DNA of 63,709 nt, the filler included. It is 8 parts of 8 records of this genome, joined end to end, with 100 filler letters (N's around TTAATTAATTAA, not from the genome) between each part and the next. Parts side by side here need not be neighbours in the genome. Positions count along the whole stretch, not along the records: positions 1 to 9,172 come from SRR31156797_67794; 7 more parts are not named here. One strand, 5' to 3'. The notes under the pieces are model-generated. The model made no database searches and had not been told where the DNA came from. It worked only from the letters and a program-made list of their open reading frames with translations. The translations under genes and the position numbers were made by a program. Of the stretch, positions 331-7,677 are shown one piece after another. The stretch's first letter is position 1. Each line of letters starts with the position of its first letter.

Positions 331-2352
331 TCAATTGACTGTTTTGAGGCCGTAGATCAGGTCCCCTGCCGTTGATGCCGCATCGCCCTCAAGCATAACG
401 GTTTTGGGGTTGTCGTACAGGGTGTTTTCCACACCAGAATAGCCAGGTTTTCTGTCAAAATTACAGACAATGACGTTGTCGGCTTTATGGGCAGAGAGAA
501 TGGGCATACCCGATATTGGCGTGCCGTCGGCTTCCATGGCAGCCGGGTTGACCACATCGCAGGCACCGAAAACGATGGCCACATCCGAGTTGGAAAATTC
601 GGGGTTGATGTCATCCATTTCGTAAAGCCGGTCATAATCCACTTCAGCCTCTGCCAGGAGCACATTCATATGACCCGGCATCCGACCGGCCACCGGGTGG
701 ATGGCAAACTTGACATCGGCCCCCTGCTGCTCCAGCATGCTGGCCAGTTCCACCACCTTGAACTGGGCCTGAGCCTGGGCCATGCCGTATCCGGGCACTA
801 CAATGACCTTTTTGGCGGCGGCCAGAGTGTTCACCGCCGTCTCCAATAGGTCCTGGGGGCCATCCGATTCAGCAGATGAGGCATCGACTGCTTTGGGCGG
901 TATATCCAGCAGGCGGTCCGCCAGTGTATGAACGCTCTCTTTGGCATCCCCGGACAGCATGATGGTATTTTCATTATAATATAGGAGGTTTTCTACCCCG
1001 GAATACCCCGGTTTTCTGTCCAGGTTGCAGCAGACCACGGTCCTTGACTCATGGGCCAGGAGTATGGGCATGCCGGAAATGGGGGAGTCGTCCGTCTGTA
1101 TGGCGGCGGGGTTGACCACATCGCAGGCCCCGATGATCAGGGTAAAATCCGTCTCCTTGAATTCATGGTTGATTTCGTCCATTTCAAAGAGCAGGTCATA
1201 ATCGATGCCGGCCTCTGCCAGGAGCACATTCATATGGCCGGGCATCCGGCCGGCCACGGGATGGATGGCAAATTTCACCTCCTTGCCCATGGCCGTCAGC
1301 TTCTGCACGAATTCAAGCACGGCAAACTGGGCCTGGGCAACGGCCATGCCGTATCCCGGTATAACAATGACCTTTTGGGCAGCGGCCGCCGCGTCTGCGG
1401 CCTCCCGGAACCGATCACCGACCTCCTTGCCGGCCGGGCCGGGGGGAACAGGGGCAGATTCCAGCTCTGAAACGCACCCGTCTTCAGCGGCTTCTTTACT
1501 GCCGCTGGAAGGTGCGGATGCCCGAGCGGCATGGATTCCGGGGATAAATATGTTTAAAAGGTTCCGGTTCATTGCCCTGCACATGACATGGGTGAGAATA
1601 CTGCCCGAGGCCGCCACGGTGGCACCGCAGGAGATCAAGAGTTTATTTTCAATGATCATGCCGCAGAAGGCCGCCGCAACACCGGCCGTGGCGTTCAAAA
1701 ACGAAATAAGCACCGGCATGTCGGCCCCGCCGATGCGCATGGAAAAAATGATCCCGAACAGGGCAGAGCTCAGAATGATGATAATATAAAGGGCCAACCG
1801 GCGGCTTTCGGGCACCACCAGGGCGGCGACGATCAGTCCCACCATCACCAGAAGGTTGGCCAGGGTCACCAGGTTATGGCGCTGTAAAACCACAGGTTTC
1901 TGGTTGAGTTTATTGGAGAGTTTACCGGCGGCCATGAGGCTGCCGCTGAATGTCAAAGCACCGATGGCCAGGCCCAGCAGGCCAGAAATTTCATTTAACA
2001 GCCCTAGGTGTCCGCTTCCCCGCATGAGTTCAGCCAGGGAAAGGGAAAAGGCGGCCACCCCGCCGGCACCGTGCTGAAAGGCCACCATGGCTGGTATCTG
2101 GATCATATCGATTTTCCTGGCCACCGCAATCCCTGGCAGGGCGCCGGCTATAAGACAGAAAACCAAAAGCCAGGGATATTGTGATCCGCTTCTGGCCAGA
2201 ACCAGGACGGCGGCACAGGCCAGGGCCAAGGCCGCGGCCAGGTTGCCGAATTTAGCCGTGAGGGGGCTGCCGAAAAGCCAGATTCCGGCAAGTAGGATGG
2301 CGATGACGGCAAAATCCAGGATGAGATTAAGTCCGGAGTATGTTTCCATCAC
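331..2352 (-). CDS. pntB: NAD(P) transhydrogenase subunit beta with two tandem dIII nucleotide-binding domains
   Basis: N-terminal multi-TM domain with IGGADMPV..FLN and MCRAMNR; PGYGMA..AQ / FAIHPVAGRMPGHMNVLLAEA occurs twice; 673 aa. Confidence 0.95.
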   Translation of the reverse strand: MMETYSGLNLILDFAVIAILLAGIWLFGSPLTAKFGNLAAALALACAAVLVLARSGSQYPWLLVFCLIAGALPGIAVARKIDMIQIPAMVAFQHGAGGVAAFSLSLAELMRGSGHLGLLNEISGLLGLAIGALTFSGSLMAAGKLSNKLNQKPVVLQRHNLVTLANLLVMVGLIVAALVVPESRRLALYIIIILSSALFGIIFSMRIGGADMPVLISFLNATAGVAAAFCGMIIENKLLISCGATVAASGSILTHVMCRAMNRNLLNIFIPGIHAARASAPSSGSKEAAEDGCVSELESAPVPPGPAGKEVGDRFREAADAAAAAQKVIVIPGYGMAVAQAQFAVLEFVQKLTAMGKEVKFAIHPVAGRMPGHMNVLLAEAGIDYDLLFEMDEINHEFKETDFTLIIGACDVVNPAAIQTDDSPISGMPILLAHESRTVVCCNLDRKPGYSGVENLLYYNENTIMLSGDAKESVHTLADRLLDIPPKAVDASSAESDGPQDLLETAVNTLAAAKKVIVVPGYGMAQAQAQFKVVELASMLEQQGADVKFAIHPVAGRMPGHMNVLLAEAEVDYDRLYEMDDINPEFSNSDVAIVFGACDVVNPAAMEADGTPISGMPILSAHKADNVIVCNFDRKPGYSGVENTLYDNPKTVMLEGDAASTAGDLIYGLKTVN

Positions 2353-2648
2353 AATTGCCCTCCTTTTTCTTCTTTTTTCCTGAACATACTGAGCATCCGG
2401 TCTGTGATGGCGAATCCGCCCACAAGGTTGAATGCGGCCATGATAAAGGCTACTGCTCCGATTCCTTGTTCTAAGGCCGTGGATTCAAAGCTGAACAGAA
2501 TCAATACCCCCAAAATAGTCACAGCCGAAATGGCATTGGTCATGGACATTAAAGGGGTGTGCAGCAGGGTGGGAATTCTTGAAATGAGGAAATATCCCAC
2601 CACAAAGGAAAAAATAAATACCCCTGTCAACAATAGAAGATTAATCAT
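2349..2648 (-). CDS. pntAB: NAD(P) transhydrogenase subunit alpha, membrane part (PntAB / alpha2)
   Basis: LHTPLMSMTNAIS and NLVGGFAITDRMLSMF motifs, 99 aa, 3 TM; stop overlaps the pntB start. Confidence 0.95.
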   Translation of the reverse strand: MINLLLLTGVFIFSFVVGYFLISRIPTLLHTPLMSMTNAISAVTILGVLILFSFESTALEQGIGAVAFIMAAFNLVGGFAITDRMLSMFRKKEEKGGQL

Positions 2649-2735: not shown

Positions 2736-3896
2736 CTAATTAAGCTCCATTGCCTTGATGGTCCCCTTGTGCATCAGGTCCCCATTATGGGTAACCAGGG
2801 CCCCGGCTACAATTTCGTCATCCAGGTTAAAATCCTGGGTGCCGGGTTTGTGCAGGTTCTCAACGAAATAATAGAGGTTCTGGGCGTAGAGCCAGGAGGA
2901 ATGTACCGGCAGAGAACCCGGGATGTTTTTGATCCCGCAGATATACACCCCGTTGTGCACGGTTTCTTTTCCCGGATCGGTCAGTTCGCAGTTGCCCCCC
3001 TGGTCGATGGAGACATCCACAATGACAGACCCCGGTTTCATGCTTTCAACCATCTGCCGGGTGATGATGTGTTGGGCCACCTCCCCGGGGATCAAGGCCG
3101 AAAGAACTATGATGTCGGATTCAGCCACCAGGGGGGCCAGGGCCTCACGTTCCTTTTCAAGCCATTCCCTGGGAAGTGCCCTGGCATACCCGCCTTCACC
3201 CACGGCCAGTTCCGGTGGAACCTCAAATTCCGCCACTTTGACGCCCAGACTCTGGGCCTCATTTCTGGCGTCGGGCCGGATGTCAACGGCCGTTACCTGG
3301 CCGCCCAGCCGTTTACCTGTGGCAATGGCCTGGAGTCCGACGACGCCGGTGCCCACCACCAGAATTTTGGCCGGCTTGGTCATGCCGATGGAGGTGCCCA
3401 CCATGGGGATGAATTTGGGGTAATTGGCCGCGGCAATGATAATGGCTTTATAGCCTGTGATGGCGCTCATTGAGGTCAGGGGGTCCATGCGCTGGGCCCT
3501 GGAGATTCTGGGGATGCCGTCCATGGTAAAAGCTGTGACCTTTTTCCCCATCATCTTTTTCACATCCCCGTGGTTGGAGGGGGCTGCCGGGTGGAGAAAG
3601 GTCACCAGGGTCTGGCCCTCTTTGAGCATATCAATCTCGTGGCAGTCAAACGCCTCGTTGAACAGGGGTTCTTTTACCTTGAGGATGATATCTGCCTTGT
3701 CAAACACCTCTTTTGCATCTTTTGCGATGGCGGCACCGGCTTTTTCATAATCGGCATCGCCGGCAAAAGCTCCGCTGCCGGCCTGGGTTTCCACCAGTAC
3801 CTCAAAGCCCAGGGCTTTAAATTTTTCAACGGTTTCAGGCAGCGCAGCCACCCGATTTTCTTTGTACATGATCTCTTTTGGAATTCCTATGAGCAT
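2736..3896 (-). CDS. pntAA: NAD(P) transhydrogenase subunit alpha, soluble NAD(H)-binding domain dI (PntAA / alpha1)
   Basis: IGIPKE..ENRVA, PRISRAQRMD, GTGVVGLQA..D(I)R Rossmann motif, GGYAR, DQGGNC. Confidence 0.93.
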   Translation of the reverse strand: MLIGIPKEIMYKENRVAALPETVEKFKALGFEVLVETQAGSGAFAGDADYEKAGAAIAKDAKEVFDKADIILKVKEPLFNEAFDCHEIDMLKEGQTLVTFLHPAAPSNHGDVKKMMGKKVTAFTMDGIPRISRAQRMDPLTSMSAITGYKAIIIAAANYPKFIPMVGTSIGMTKPAKILVVGTGVVGLQAIATGKRLGGQVTAVDIRPDARNEAQSLGVKVAEFEVPPELAVGEGGYARALPREWLEKEREALAPLVAESDIIVLSALIPGEVAQHIITRQMVESMKPGSVIVDVSIDQGGNCELTDPGKETVHNGVYICGIKNIPGSLPVHSSWLYAQNLYYFVENLHKPGTQDFNLDDEIVAGALVTHNGDLMHKGTIKAMELN

Positions 3897-3939: not shown

Positions 3940-4389
3940 TCAGGCGGCTTTGCCGCCATGGCGCATTCGGTTCAGTGCGGTTTCCAGGGCATCGTGGAAT
4001 TTGGGGGGTTCCGGTGTATCAAGGTATTCCTCCAGCCCTTTTATTGTCCGTTTGATGAACCCGTTGACCTCATCCACATCCAGGTCTCTGCGGCCAACGA
4101 TTTTTTTTATAAGTTTTGAAAGGCCGTTCACAGCAAGGATTCTCACGTCGTAGTACAGGTCTTTCCGGCCCACAAGGGCATAGACTTCCTTTGCCAGTTC
4201 GACACCGGGCTCCCGGACAGATTCCAGGGCTTCAATGGCCGCCTCCCGAAGCCGCCAGTTCTGGTCAAACCGGAGCAGGCGGATCAGTTCGCCCTGATTG
4301 TTATCAAGCTTGTCATTTTTTTTAAGATCCTCCAGAATTTCCAGCGCATTCCCCCAGTCCATCAGATTCCCGAAATTCATATTTTCCAT
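3940..4389 (-). CDS. Small alpha-helical HEAT-repeat-like protein, first gene of the pnt operon
   Basis: 149-aa ORF with AGGAG RBS; two HEAT-like units (NWRLREAAIEAL; YYDVRILAVNGL). Confidence 0.65.
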   Translation of the reverse strand: MENMNFGNLMDWGNALEILEDLKKNDKLDNNQGELIRLLRFDQNWRLREAAIEALESVREPGVELAKEVYALVGRKDLYYDVRILAVNGLSKLIKKIVGRRDLDVDEVNGFIKRTIKGLEEYLDTPEPPKFHDALETALNRMRHGGKAA

Positions 4390-4505: not shown

Positions 4506-4520
4506 GCAAATTGCATGCCA
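4506..4520 (-). promoter_or_regulatory. sigma54 -24/-12 promoter for the HEAT-pntAA-pntAB-pntB operon
   Basis: Minus strand reads TGGCATGCAATTTGC (GG-N10-GC), about 115 nt upstream of the 4389 start, next to a sigma54 activator gene. Confidence 0.75.
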
Positions 4521-4601: not shown

Positions 4602-4631
4602 TGCAATGTGCAATAGGTGTTGCACGTTGCA
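4602..4631. promoter_or_regulatory. Palindromic upstream activator sequence, candidate enhancer-binding-protein site
   Basis: TGCAATGTGCAATA-GG-TGTTGCACGTTGCA (12/14 inverted match), about 80-110 nt upstream of the sigma54 site with an AT-rich tract between. Confidence 0.6.
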
Positions 4632-4656
4632 CCACTCCATTTCAAAAAAGCTAGGG

Positions 4657-6027
4657 TTAATTAAGATTGAGCCGGTTCATGATCCGCCAGAGGGTAGAGC
4701 GGTCGATTCCCAGGAGCCTGGCGGCCTGGGTTTTATTCCGGCCAGTGAGGTCCAGCACTTTTTCAATATGATTATGGGTGAGCTGTTCAAGAGTTTCAAT
4801 GCCCTCTTTGCCCCCGCGGCTTTGGGGACGGGCAAAGGGATGGCGCAGGTGATCGGGCAGGCTGTCCACGGTGACCTCGCAGCTTTCCTCAAACAGAGTG
4901 GCCCGTTCAATTATATTTTCCAGCTCCCGGACATTTCCGGGCCATTCATAGGCCTCCAGCAACTCCAGGGTCTCCCGCCCGATCCGTTGGATGTTTTTGC
5001 CGTTCTCCGCCGCATACTGCTGGAGAAAATGCTGTGCCAGAAGGCCGATATCCCCCTTGCGGTCCCTTAGGGGCGGCAGCTCAATGGTCACCACGTTCAG
5101 CCGGTAATATAAGTCCTCTCGAAAGCTGCCGTCTTTGACCATGACCTCAAGATTCTTATGGGTGGCCGCAATCACCCTCACCGCCACTTTTTTCCGCTCA
5201 AAGGACCCAACGGGCTGAATTTCACCGCTCTCCAGCGCTCGCAGGAAGGCCTGCTGAAGCCCCATGCCGATGTCTCCAATTTCATCCAGGAATACCGTGC
5301 CGCCGTCCGCCGCCTCAAACAGGCCCTGCTTGGCAGAAACCGCACCGGTAAAGGCCCCTTTTGCGTGGCCGAATAATTCACTGGCCAGAAGGTTTTCATT
5401 TAGGGCCGCGCAGTTCACCGGCAGATAGGGGGTGCCGGCCTTGCGGCTGTTAAAGTGGATGGCCTTGGCCACCAGCTCCTTTCCCGTTCCGGTCTCCCCG
5501 CGGATGAGTACCGTTGTTTTGGAATCTTTGACATTGTTGATCACCTTGAACACCCGCATCATGGGTTCGCTGGTGCCGGTGATATTGTCAAAGGTGTATT
5601 TTTTTTTCAGCTGATCCTGGAGCCTTAAGTTCTGGAGAACCAGTGCCCTTTTTTCCAGGGTCTTTTTCACCACCAGGCGCAATTCATCCATGTCAAAGGG
5701 CTTTAGAATATAATCTTCGGCCCCGTATTTCATGGCCAACACCGCCGTATCCACGGTGCCGTAAGCGGTGATCATCAGCAAAAGGATATCCGGGTCATAG
5801 GCTTTTACGGCCTTGAGCAACTCCATCCCGTCGATGCCGGGCAGTTTGAGATCGGTGATGACCAGGTCATACCTGTGATCCGTTATTTTCTCCAGGGCCT
5901 TTTCCCCGGCATCTACGGACTGGACCTCATATCCTCGGCTCCCCAGGATGTGCATCAGTCCCTGGTTCATTTTTGGGTCATCTTCAACGATTAAAATTCG
6001 GTATTTATACATCATCTCTCCTGGCAT
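4657..6027 (-). CDS. sigma54-dependent NtrC-family response regulator (REC-AAA+-Fis HTH)
   Basis: [56 protein letters not shown]. Confidence 0.97.
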
Positions 6028-6033
6028 TTTTCA

Positions 6034-7677
6034 TCATTCAACGGGAAACTCAACAGTAAAAACTGTGCCGGTCCTGATGGCTTCACTGGATGTGGCGCTG
6101 ACCACCTTAAGGTCGCCCCCCAGCTTGCGTACCATTTCGTGGCTGACGAATAACCCCAGCCCGGTGCCCCGCCCCTGTTTTTTGGTGGTGAAAAACGGGG
6201 TGAAAATTTTGCTCAGCACCGGCCCAGGGATACCTGGGCCGGTATCCTGAACCTCAATTTTAACCATGTTCAACACTTTTACATAACGGGTTTTCAGCCT
6301 CAGATGCCCACCGCCGGGCATGGCTTCAATGGCGTTGGATACAAGGTTGGTCAAAATGGCCCTCACTGTGCTGGCATCGGCATTGACCCTGGGCATCCCC
6401 TTTTCCAGTCGCCACCTTACTTTTATGGCATGGGATTCACAATGGGGCCCGGCAATCTTCATCAGTTTTTCCAAGGTGGCGTTGACATCGGTTTTCAGCC
6501 CGTCCCGGCGGGAGTGGCGGGAAAATTCCAGAAGATTACGGATGATCTGGCTTCCCTGACGCACCTCTTCTACCACCGTGGAAAGCCGCTCCTGAACCGT
6601 ATCCACAGACGGGTCAGGCGTGTTCAAATCTTCTTTGGCAATCTGGGTGTACAGCAGGGCATTGGCAAGTGGCGTGTTCAATTCATGGGCCAGCCCCGAG
6701 GTCAGCAGCCCCAGGGAGGCCAGTTTTTCCTTCTGGATGACCTGGAATTCCAGTTCTTTTTCATATCGGTACTTGGATTTTAGAATATTGACAATGCCCA
6801 TGGAAACAAAAAGGGCCAGGCAAAGGACAATCAGGGCCGTCATCACGCCGTAGGCCACTGCATCACGGCCCATCTGCCGGATTCGTTCCAGGATTTCAGC
6901 CATGTCCTGGTCGGCCATGACATACCAGGGAAAGCCTTCAACTTTTTCATAGGCCTGGAGTACCCGCTTCCCACGGTAATCAATGGTTTCATATATCCCC
7001 TGCATCCGTCCCCGGACATCCTCCATTGAAATCCGGTCTTCAAACACCCGGGCCCCGAACCGAGATGTCGACAAAAACCACCCGGTGTCATCCACCAGAT
7101 AGACCTCCCCGGTCACTTCAATATTGCTCTTTCTAAGCAGGGTGTCGATTTGCCTGAAATCGATCAAGGCGCACAGATGGCCGCAGTTTTCCCCGCACTC
7201 CACCGGGGAACAGATCATCATGGCAGGCACCCGGTCATCCTCCCTGCTTAACATAAAAACCGTCCCTTCCCGGTGATGGCAGCCGTTGGCAAATAGACTC
7301 TCTCCGGCCGGGGATACCAGGGCTTCAAAATTTAAATCCAGGGTGGAAAATATGGGATGCCAGTCCCGGTCCAAAACAAAAAAAGAGAGATAGGGATGGG
7401 CTTTCATTTGCCCCAGATGGGAGAGAAGTTTTTCCCGGTCATATCCAAACATGAAGACTATGCTGGCCAGGCTGTTGATATCGCTGCGCCGCTCGGCAAT
7501 AAATTCCTGAATATCCTCTGCATTGCTCCGGGCCAGTCCCCTGAGGTAGGAGGATGATTTTTTTTCAATGAGGATCTGCCCCTGTGAGAGGATCTTGAAG
7601 CCCAGCGCCGCCAGGGGCAGCAGCGACACCATCATAAATGCGGCAATCAACAGCAGCCTGATCCGTTCAAAATTCAT
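6034..7677 (-). CDS. Membrane sensor histidine kinase with Cache-like periplasmic domain
   Basis: Two TM helices flanking a Cache-like region; H-box GLAHELNTPL; N, G1, F, G2 boxes (NAIEA, DTGPGI, PFFTTK, GTGLGL). Confidence 0.95.
   Translation of the reverse strand: MNFERIRLLLIAAFMMVSLLPLAALGFKILSQGQILIEKKSSSYLRGLARSNAEDIQEFIAERRSDINSLASIVFMFGYDREKLLSHLGQMKAHPYLSFFVLDRDWHPIFSTLDLNFEALVSPAGESLFANGCHHREGTVFMLSREDDRVPAMMICSPVECGENCGHLCALIDFRQIDTLLRKSNIEVTGEVYLVDDTGWFLSTSRFGARVFEDRISMEDVRGRMQGIYETIDYRGKRVLQAYEKVEGFPWYVMADQDMAEILERIRQMGRDAVAYGVMTALIVLCLALFVSMGIVNILKSKYRYEKELEFQVIQKEKLASLGLLTSGLAHELNTPLANALLYTQIAKEDLNTPDPSVDTVQERLSTVVEEVRQGSQIIRNLLEFSRHSRRDGLKTDVNATLEKLMKIAGPHCESHAIKVRWRLEKGMPRVNADASTVRAILTNLVSNAIEAMPGGGHLRLKTRYVKVLNMVKIEVQDTGPGIPGPVLSKIFTPFFTTKKQGRGTGLGLFVSHEMVRKLGGDLKVVSATSSEAIRTGTVFTVEFPVE

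What the first reader, a model, noticed from the sequence alone, without database searches (positions are those of the whole stretch)
440..1035. Both dIII copies replace the NADP 2'-phosphate-binding KRS motif with N-[LF]-D
Seen: the loop preceding GY[AS]GV.N reads CCNLDRKPGYSG (1018-1026) and VCNFDRKPGYSG (454-462), and GAND is GACD in both copies. Established: canonical dIII has KRS(M) here, and these residues bind the 2'-phosphate that makes dIII NADP(H)-specific. The proton-channel residues (His in AFQH, Asp and Asn in GGADMPVLISFLN, Arg in MNR) and the NAD-type dI (RISRAQ.MD, acidic residue in VDIR) are retained. Inference: an acidic residue at this site suggests changed cofactor preference, so this may be an ion-coupled hydride-transfer enzyme that is not a standard NADH:NADP+ transhydrogenase. 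The shifted RK could alternatively rescue phosphate binding.
Basis: partly seen in the sequence, partly recalled or inferred. Interest (0 to 1): 0.85.

Follow-up and report, generated by a model that had tools for sequence, protein, structure and literature searches.

The report
PntB subfamily lacking the KRS clamp
This membrane transhydrogenase gene carries two tandem nucleotide-binding domains in which the three residues that normally grip the extra phosphate of NADP are replaced by Asn-hydrophobic-Asp, a change shared by a large, uncharacterised branch of the family found in many bacterial phyla.

Summary
PntB (331-2352, minus strand, 673 aa) has dII plus two tandem dIII domains. They read N-L-D (1018-1026) and N-F-D (454-462) where E. 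coli has K424-R425-S426, and GACD where E. coli has GAND.

This is not a one-off. In 408 non-identical dIII domains of this type, Asn is invariant and Asp is 98% conserved. Phe439 is always Tyr. The type forms one clade in my dIII tree. It occurs in Desulfobacterota, gut Clostridia, Myxococcota, Planctomycetota, Gemmatimonadota and others, with one to four dIII copies per protein.

The proton-channel residues, the hydride-transfer residues and the NAD-type dI partner are all retained.

Seven of 43 genomes with this type also carry a KRS-type PntB, six of them confirmed by motif.

No tool here could identify the bound nucleotide. My best guess (0.5) is a transhydrogenase that still uses NADP(H) through an uncharged pocket. 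A shift to NAD(H) is the main rival (0.3). My eight searches of the open-access library found no description of this variant.

The parts
331..2352 (-). pntB, 673 aa: membrane domain dII followed by two tandem dIII domains
   Evidence: ORF. Pfam PNTB 730 bits with two stretches. NCBIfam equivalog NF006974 scores 523.5 bits, below its cut-off of 689.
1498..2352 (-). dII (residues about 1-285), with the proton-path residues His94 (AFQH, 2071-2082), Asp/Asn in GGADMPVLISFLN (1693-1731) and Arg in MNR (1564-1572)
   Evidence: Alignment to E. coli and T. thermophilus PntB. Coordinates.
1387..1497 (-). dII-dIII tether, roughly 20 residues longer than in E. coli
   Evidence: The E. coli row is gapped across query residues about 280-320. 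The sequence is printed.
913..1386 (-). dIII copy 1 (residues about 323-480): PGYGMA 1342-1359, HPVAGRMPGH 1234-1263, GACD 1120-1131, N-L-D 1018-1026, GYSGVEN 988-1008, Tyr458 979-981
   Evidence: pLDDT is mostly above 90. TM-score normalised to the target is 0.91-0.93 against solved dIII structures.
838..912 (-). Flexible linker between the two dIII copies
   Evidence: AlphaFold2 pLDDT is below 50 for model residues 184-198, which are protein residues 484-498.
334..837 (-). dIII copy 2 (residues about 506-673): PGYGMA 778-795, HPVAGRMPGH 670-699, GACD 556-567, N-F-D 454-462, GYSGVEN 424-444, Tyr646 415-417
   Evidence: Identity to T. thermophilus dIII is 58% (Foldseek row 1). Identity to copy 1 is 63%.
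2349..2648 (-). pntAB (alpha2, 99 aa, membrane helices)
   Evidence: Pfam PNTB_4TM, E 2.4e-28.
2736..3896 (-). pntAA (dI, 386 aa), NAD(H)-type
   Evidence: Pfam AlaDh_PNT_N and AlaDh_PNT_C. Aligns end to end with R. rubrum dI, keeping PRISRAQ.MD and the Asp of VDIR.
3940..4389 (-). 149-aa HEAT-repeat-like protein, apparently the first gene of the operon
   Evidence: Pfam HEAT_2, E 1.8e-7. A homologue lies directly upstream of pntAA in 28 of 63 related loci.
4506..4520 (-). Sigma-54-type -24/-12 promoter, TGGCAT-N5-TTGC
   Evidence: Read from the sequence. The same element lies 540-770 nt upstream of pntAA in 22 of 49 related loci.
4657..7677 (-). NtrC-type sigma-54 response regulator (4657-6027) and sensor histidine kinase (6034-7677)
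   Evidence: ORFs. I did not scan these two window ORFs against Pfam. The equivalent pair in L004 and L018 scores as Sigma54_activat/Response_reg and dCache_1/HisKA/HATPase_c. This cluster is present in 40 of 63 loci.

Best explanation
The window carries a sigma-54-controlled operon: a HEAT-like gene, then pntAA, pntAB and pntB. It encodes a proton-coupled nicotinamide nucleotide transhydrogenase of a distinct 'N-hydrophobic-D' subfamily of PntB.

Shown: the machinery is intact. This covers the proton path in dII, the NAD(H)-type dI, and in both dIII copies the GYG fingerprint, HPVAGRMPGH, Asp392 and the adenine-contacting GDA.

Shown: the cationic clamp K424-R425-S426 for the 2'-phosphate is replaced by invariant Asn, an aromatic or aliphatic residue, and Asp. 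Coupled changes go with it: Phe439 to Tyr (100%), Ala432 to Ser (83%), a long polar residue at position 428 (K/N/R 89%), and Asn391 to Cys (80%).

Inferred: hydride transfer still runs between NAD(H) on dI and NADP(H) on dIII. The 2'-phosphate would be held by an uncharged hydrogen-bond pocket (Asn424, Tyr439, Ser432, Lys/Asn428, organised by Asp426) instead of a Lys-Arg clamp. That should give much weaker, faster-exchanging binding.

Inferred: together with the tandem dIII copies and the longer tether, this suits a high-flux or readily reversible enzyme. One possibility is NADPH re-oxidation with proton export in anaerobes. It would work alongside, not duplicate, the tight-binding KRS-type enzyme that some genomes also carry.
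For: Retained catalytic and channel residues.

The dIII fold is unchanged, with rmsd 1.1-1.3 A over 167-169 aligned columns to solved dIII structures.

The motif is conserved. All 120 best homologues carry it in every complete dIII. Of the 80 genome loci, 75 carry it, 3 are KR-type and 2 could not be read.

Monophyly: one clade holds all 203 N-x-D domains plus one other and no KR domain, with support 0.80.

New polar residues appear in loop E together with the loss of Lys and Arg.

The partner dI keeps the NAD-ribose Asp in 77 of 77 cases. A second, different redox couple is therefore needed for any net reaction. By recall, NADP(H) is the only other common nicotinamide adenine dinucleotide.

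No conserved new partner gene was found in 63 neighbourhoods.

In the five Clostridia-type genomes searched this is the only PntB. In a class sample of 201 genomes, 35 have a PntB and 8 of those carry a KRS type. Most of the rest appear to have only this type. That inference rests on 20 loci read by motif plus score class for the others.
Against: An Asp sits exactly where Ser426 stands in the canonical KRS clamp, which is unfavourable for a dianionic phosphate.

Net charge over positions 424-429 averages -0.5 (range -2 to +1), against +2.4 in KR-type domains. In 66 of 408 loops there is no basic residue. The commonest copy-1 loop is NLDDKP.

The K-R-S to N-hydrophobic-D change looks like the classical NADP-to-NAD specificity switch (my own knowledge, not tested here).

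I could not inspect coordinates. The claim that Asn424, Tyr439, Ser432 or Lys428 can reach the 2'-phosphate is therefore unverified.

Both types co-exist in 7 of 43 genomes that carry this type. Six were confirmed by motif and G185 by score only. This points to non-identical functions.
Confidence: 0.5

Rival explanations
1. dIII of this subfamily no longer recognises the 2'-phosphate. It binds NAD(H), or another nicotinamide adenine dinucleotide lacking the 2'-phosphate. The enzyme would then not be an NADH:NADP+ transhydrogenase, and its second redox partner or physiological role would be unknown.
For: Lys424 and Arg425 are lost in 408 of 408 domains, and Ser426 is Asp in 98%. The loop is neutral to acidic. 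Invariance of Asn and Asp argues for a new specific contact, such as with the ribose diol, rather than decay. Loop D, the other specificity loop named in PMC9529548, also differs systematically. A canonical KRS paralogue is kept in the same genome in 7 of 43 cases. The protein scores below NCBIfam's equivalog cut-off.
Against: dI stays NAD(H)-type in 77 of 77 partners. NAD(H) on both sites gives no net chemistry and would only leak protons. No conserved partner gene or alternative-cofactor gene lies nearby in 63 loci. All hydride-transfer residues remain under strong constraint in every copy. In many genomes this is the only PntB.
Confidence: 0.3
2. The two dIII copies divide the work. One exchanges nucleotide at dII. 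The other holds its nucleotide permanently as a hydride relay or as a regulatory sensor. The altered loop would reflect non-exchanging binding.
For: The duplication is old in Desulfobacterota. The copies are 63% identical and fall into position-specific clades, which are weakly supported (0.51 and 0.52). Copy 1 typically reads CC-N-L-D-D-K and copy 2 VC-N-F-D-A-K. AlphaFold2 gives pTM 0.74 for the two-domain piece despite a disordered linker, which hints at a preferred mutual arrangement.
Against: The same motif occurs in single-dIII proteins (36 of the representatives). In Clostridia the copies are 85-99% identical, so they are not specialised. Every catalytic motif is kept in both copies.
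Confidence: 0.1
3. The substitutions are neutral or degenerate and the gene is decaying or non-functional.
For: None beyond the loss of the canonical motif.
Against: The frame is intact. The new residues are invariant across phyla. The operon and its promoter are conserved.
Confidence: 0.02

Closest known systems
Thermus thermophilus transhydrogenase (alpha1, alpha2, beta; PDB 4O9U, 4J16)
   Same: Three-gene layout of dI, a small membrane subunit and beta. The dIII fold matches (TM-score normalised to the target 0.91, rmsd 1.3 A, 58% identity). The dII and dIII catalytic motifs are shared.
   Different: T. thermophilus has K-R-G and GAND, and one dIII per beta subunit. The window has N-L/F-D and GACD, two dIII copies and a longer tether.
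Escherichia coli PntAB (PDB 9L76, 2BRU)
   Same: Beta-His91, Asp213, Asn222, Arg265, Asp392, Arg350 and Tyr315 are all aligned and conserved.
   Different: E. coli has the KRS motif K424-R425-S426 (PMC9529548) and Arg425 contacts NADP+ (PMC13635403). Here these positions are N, L or F, and D. E. coli Phe439 is Tyr here and Asn391 is Cys. E. coli PntA is one fused chain, whereas here it is split.
Rhodospirillum rubrum PntAA/PntAB/PntB (PDB 1HZZ, 1PNO)
   Same: Split alpha subunit. dI aligns over residues 1-377 with all NAD-site residues. dIII is 50-52% identical.
   Different: R. rubrum has the canonical KRS loop and a single dIII.

Membership tests
PntB / NAD(P) transhydrogenase beta subunit (Pfam PF02233) | Scores above the family gathering threshold over dII plus dIII | tested here: met
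   730.2 bits against a cut-off of 31.7, with two stretches.
Re/Si-specific NAD(P)+ transhydrogenase beta, NCBIfam equivalog NF006974 | Score at or above the equivalog cut-off of 689 bits | tested here: not met
   523.5 bits. The canonical paralogue from the Desulfuromusa kysingii genome (L082) scores 688.2, also just under the cut-off.
Proton-translocating transhydrogenase | dII proton-path residues (E. coli beta-His91, Asp213, Asn222, Arg265) | tested here: met
   All aligned and identical.
Proton-translocating transhydrogenase | dIII fold with the GYG fingerprint, HPVAGRMPG and Asp392 | tested here: met
   Present in both copies. The model superposes on solved dIII at rmsd 1.1-1.3 A.
Proton-translocating transhydrogenase | KRS motif (K424-R425-S/G426) that clamps the 2'-phosphate of NADP(H) | tested here: not met
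   N-L-D and N-F-D at the aligned positions, with no gaps.
Proton-translocating transhydrogenase | One dIII per beta chain | tested here: not met
   Two complete dIII domains.
Proton-translocating transhydrogenase | Partner dI with NAD(H)-site residues (R. rubrum Arg127, Gln132, Asp135, Asp202 equivalents) | tested here: met
Proton-translocating transhydrogenase | Binds NADP(H) on dIII and couples hydride transfer to proton movement | not testable with these tools
   No ligand modelling or assay was available.
N-x-D subfamily of PntB (defined here) | Asn424, a hydrophobic or aromatic residue at 425, Asp426 and Tyr439, and placement inside the N-x-D clade of the dIII tree | tested here: met
   Both copies carry all four features. 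Both fall inside the 204-member clade.

The most novel reading that the evidence does not exclude
A whole, phylum-spanning branch of proteins annotated 'PntB', including those of marine sulfate reducers and gut Clostridia, has a dIII that does not bind NADP(H). These enzymes would then be ion-coupled hydride-transfer machines with a different second substrate or role. Genome-based accounts of NADPH supply in these organisms would be wrong.
Probability: 0.3. Interest if true: 0.85.

Novelty: new variant of a known kind. Interest (0 to 1): 0.62.

Why it matters
The KRS loop is named as part of the NADP(H) site of transhydrogenase in the papers I read. Here an entire clade replaces it with an uncharged to acidic loop and repeatedly multiplies dIII to two, three or four copies.

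The clade includes abundant marine sulfate reducers and human-gut Clostridia. In a sample of the class of Desulfosarcina alkanivorans, a relative of the window's organism, it is the commoner type. Of the 29 PntB loci I read there, 20 carry this motif and 8 carry KRS.

Metabolic reconstructions simply call these genes PntAB (for example PMC4969296, passages read).

If specificity or affinity differs, the redox budgets inferred for these organisms change. The family would also offer a natural experiment on how binding-change coupling works without the cationic clamp. The question can be tested directly with isolated dIII domains.

Tried and rejected
- No whole genome is held for the window, so the organism's other NADPH routes could not be checked.
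- A region-restricted homologue search timed out. It was repeated with the whole protein.
- Cluster look-up gave almost no names.
- Gene neighbourhoods showed regulators only: Cache kinase with a sigma-54 regulator, or Lrp/AsnC in 12 loci. There was no NAD kinase or redox partner, so context does not reveal the substrate.
- I recalled that E. coli pntAB is Lrp-regulated. Searches did not confirm this, and it is not used as evidence.
- A strict sigma-54 pattern search missed the promoter. It was found by reading the sequence.
- Co-occurrence statistics within the class sample are uninformative: one genome has both types, and about one is expected by chance.
- Eight literature searches found no paper describing an N-x-D loop or tandem dIII. 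The Kampjut 2019 and Leung 2015 papers are not held. Supplementary files were not consulted.
- Complex prediction was not used, because it scores only protein partners and could not tell NAD from NADP.
- I had no access to model or PDB coordinates, so no contact analysis of the 2' pocket was possible.

Full report
**What is in the window.** Three co-directional minus-strand ORFs encode PntAA (2736-3896, dI), PntAB (2349-2648) and PntB (331-2352, 673 aa). PntB scores 730 bits on Pfam PNTB with two matched stretches, because it has dII followed by two complete dIII domains. Residues are about 323-480 for copy 1 and 506-673 for copy 2. The linker between them is predicted to be disordered (pLDDT below 50). 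An AlphaFold2 model of the two-dIII piece has mean pLDDT 88 and pTM 0.74. Its dIII fold superposes on solved dIII structures at rmsd 1.1-1.3 A with TM-score 0.91-0.93 normalised to the target.

**Check of the observation.** N-L-D lies at 1018-1026 and N-F-D at 454-462. GACD lies at 1120-1131 and 556-567. Ungapped HMMER alignments put these under K-R-S of E. coli and ovine NNT, under K-R-G of T. thermophilus, and under GAND. PMC9529548 (passages read) calls K424-R425-S426 the KRS motif. [quoted passage not shown] PMC13635403 (passages read) lists Arg425 among the NADP+ contacts.

**It is a family trait.**
- All 120 best homologues carry N-x-D, rarely N-x-N, in every complete dIII. Of these, 105 have two dIII, 10 have three, 1 has four, and 4 have one complete copy.
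- Among the 150 best cluster representatives, my pattern could read 126. Of these, 47 carry N-x-D: 36 with one dIII, 7 with two (one has a D-M-D loop in its second copy), 3 with three and 1 with four. 74 carry KR, all counted as single, and 5 fall in neither class. The remaining 23 have no complete dIII, and P0103 was counted with the first set.
- Two KR-type proteins do show a second dIII: P0141, where it is degenerate, and the fragment P0184.
- Of 80 genome loci, 75 are N-x-D, 3 are KR-type (L071, L078, L079) and 2 end before the loop (L073, L075).
- The record titles name Desulfobacterota, Myxococcota, Gemmatimonadota, Planctomycetota, Verrucomicrobiota, Latescibacterota and many Clostridia (Oscillospiraceae, Christensenellales).

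These sets are ranked by similarity to the query, so they do not estimate the share of this type among all PntB. A more even sample is the 201 genomes of the class of Desulfosarcina alkanivorans. There, 35 have a PntB. Of the 29 loci read, 8 are KRS with GAND, 20 are N-x-D or N-x-N with GACD, and 1 could not be read at the loop.

**Which positions differ.** I compared 408 N-x-D and 78 KR non-identical dIII domains.

| E. coli position | KR-type | N-x-D type |
|---|---|---|
| K424 | K 100% | N 100% |
| R425 | R 100% | F 38%, L 38%, Y 17% |
| S426 | S/G/T | D 98% |
| F423 | I/L/M | C 88% |
| F439 | F 85% | Y 100% |
| N391 | N 98% | C 80%, N 17% |
| A432 | A 80% | S 83% |
| 428 | G/A/S | K 64%, N 14%, R 11% |

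Several loop D positions also differ. The GYG fingerprint, HPVAGRMPGH, Asp392 and the GDA that contacts adenine are conserved in both types. The Arg of this window's D-R-K is not conserved (D 24%, A 19%, E 14%). Net charge over positions 424-429 is +2 to +4 in KR-type domains and -2 to +1 (mean -0.5) in N-x-D domains. In 66 of 408 loops there is no basic residue. This window's +1 is at the top of the range.

**Tree and duplication history.** A FastTree of 287 domains, filtered at 88% identity, puts all 203 N-x-D domains plus one other in a single clade with no KR member. Support is 0.80 with a midpoint root. In Desulfobacterota the two copies are 63-70% identical and sort by position, although these clades are weakly supported (0.51 and 0.52). 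The duplication there is therefore old. In Clostridia and some Myxococcota the copies are 85-99% identical, so they arose recently or are homogenised. Multiplication of dIII has thus happened repeatedly.

**Partner and context.** The dI partners of N-x-D PntB keep PRISRAQ.MD and the ribose-binding Asp in 77 of 77 cases. In 63 neighbourhoods the recurring genes are:
- pntAA (54 loci);
- a sigma-54 regulator and kinase cluster (40);
- a HEAT-like protein of about 150 aa (28);
- Lrp/AsnC (12).

No metabolic partner recurs. A sigma-54 promoter, TGGCAT-N5-TTGC, lies at 4520-4506. The same element is found in 22 of 49 relatives.

**Co-occurrence with the canonical type.** I searched the whole genomes of 43 organisms that carry the N-x-D type. 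Seven also carry a KRS-type PntB:
- Desulforhopalus sp. IMCC35007 and Desulfuromusa kysingii;
- G185, classified by score only;
- four of five Planctomycetota or Gemmatimonadota genomes, with motifs confirmed.

Five of five Clostridia-type genomes have only the N-x-D type.

**Interpretation.** The chemistry of the loop argues that the cationic 2'-phosphate clamp is gone. A plain NAD(H) site would pair NAD(H) with NAD(H), because dI is unchanged. That gives no net reaction, yet every catalytic residue is under strong constraint in every copy. I therefore favour (0.5) a remodelled, uncharged 2'-phosphate pocket that still serves NADP(H) with weaker binding. Multiple dIII copies and a longer tether would then suit high-flux or reversible operation. 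The NAD(H) or other-nucleotide reading stays at 0.3, and specialisation of the two copies at 0.1. None of this could be tested structurally here.

**Novelty.** Eight full-text searches found no description of the N-x-D loop or of tandem dIII. Subscription papers and supplementary files were not seen. The protein scores below NCBIfam's equivalog cut-off. I class it as a new variant of a known kind.

Noticed in passing
window 3940-4389 (-), and position -3 relative to pntB in 28 of 63 related loci: A small protein of about 150 aa with a weak HEAT_2 match and no NCBIfam hit always sits between the sigma-54 regulator and pntAA. It lies downstream of the sigma-54 promoter and may be an uncharacterised accessory or assembly factor of this Pnt type.
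   Followed up: partly
window 4506-4520 (-) and 4603-4632 (-): A sigma-54 promoter, TGGCAT-N5-TTGC, with inverted TGCAAC/TTGCA repeats upstream that could be regulator binding sites. The promoter recurs in 22 of 49 relatives. The Cache-domain kinase suggests induction by an external ligand.
   Followed up: partly
dIII positions equivalent to E. coli N391 and F423 (window Cys410/Cys442 and Cys598/Cys630): Cys391 almost always comes with Cys423: 317 of the 327 N-x-D domains that have Cys391 also have Cys423. The two lie at the ends of two beta-strands predicted in the model, so they could form a redox or metal-binding pair next to the nucleotide site. I did not check whether the strands are neighbours, so this is unexplained.
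   Followed up: partly
L036, L041, L045, L046, L050, L065, L074 and P0016, P0121: PntB proteins with three or four tandem dIII domains. In gut Clostridia the copies are 85-94% identical to each other, suggesting recent expansion or concerted evolution.
   Followed up: partly
L032, L037 (single-dIII Desulfobacteraceae): Their single dIII groups with copy 2 of the double forms in the tree. They seem to have lost copy 1 rather than never having duplicated.
   Followed up: no
L071 (Dehalococcoidia): A mixed form: K-R-T in the loop together with GACD and Cys423. In the tree it falls with the KR group.
   Followed up: no
dI of N-x-D operons (window PntAA residues about 265-272): The conserved TTALIPG[KR] of canonical dI reads LSALIPGE in partners of N-x-D PntB. 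This includes a Lys/Arg to Glu change near the nucleotide or interface region and may reflect co-evolution with dIII. Only 8 canonical dI sequences were available for comparison.
   Followed up: partly
G122:C82:67277-67765, G138:C4:183476-183946, G013:C1:4333892-4334233: Short ORFs (203-308 aa) that match only the dIII part of the PNTB profile at 116-133 bits. In G122 and G138 this is the only PNTB match. They may be stand-alone, diverged dIII-like proteins.
   Followed up: no
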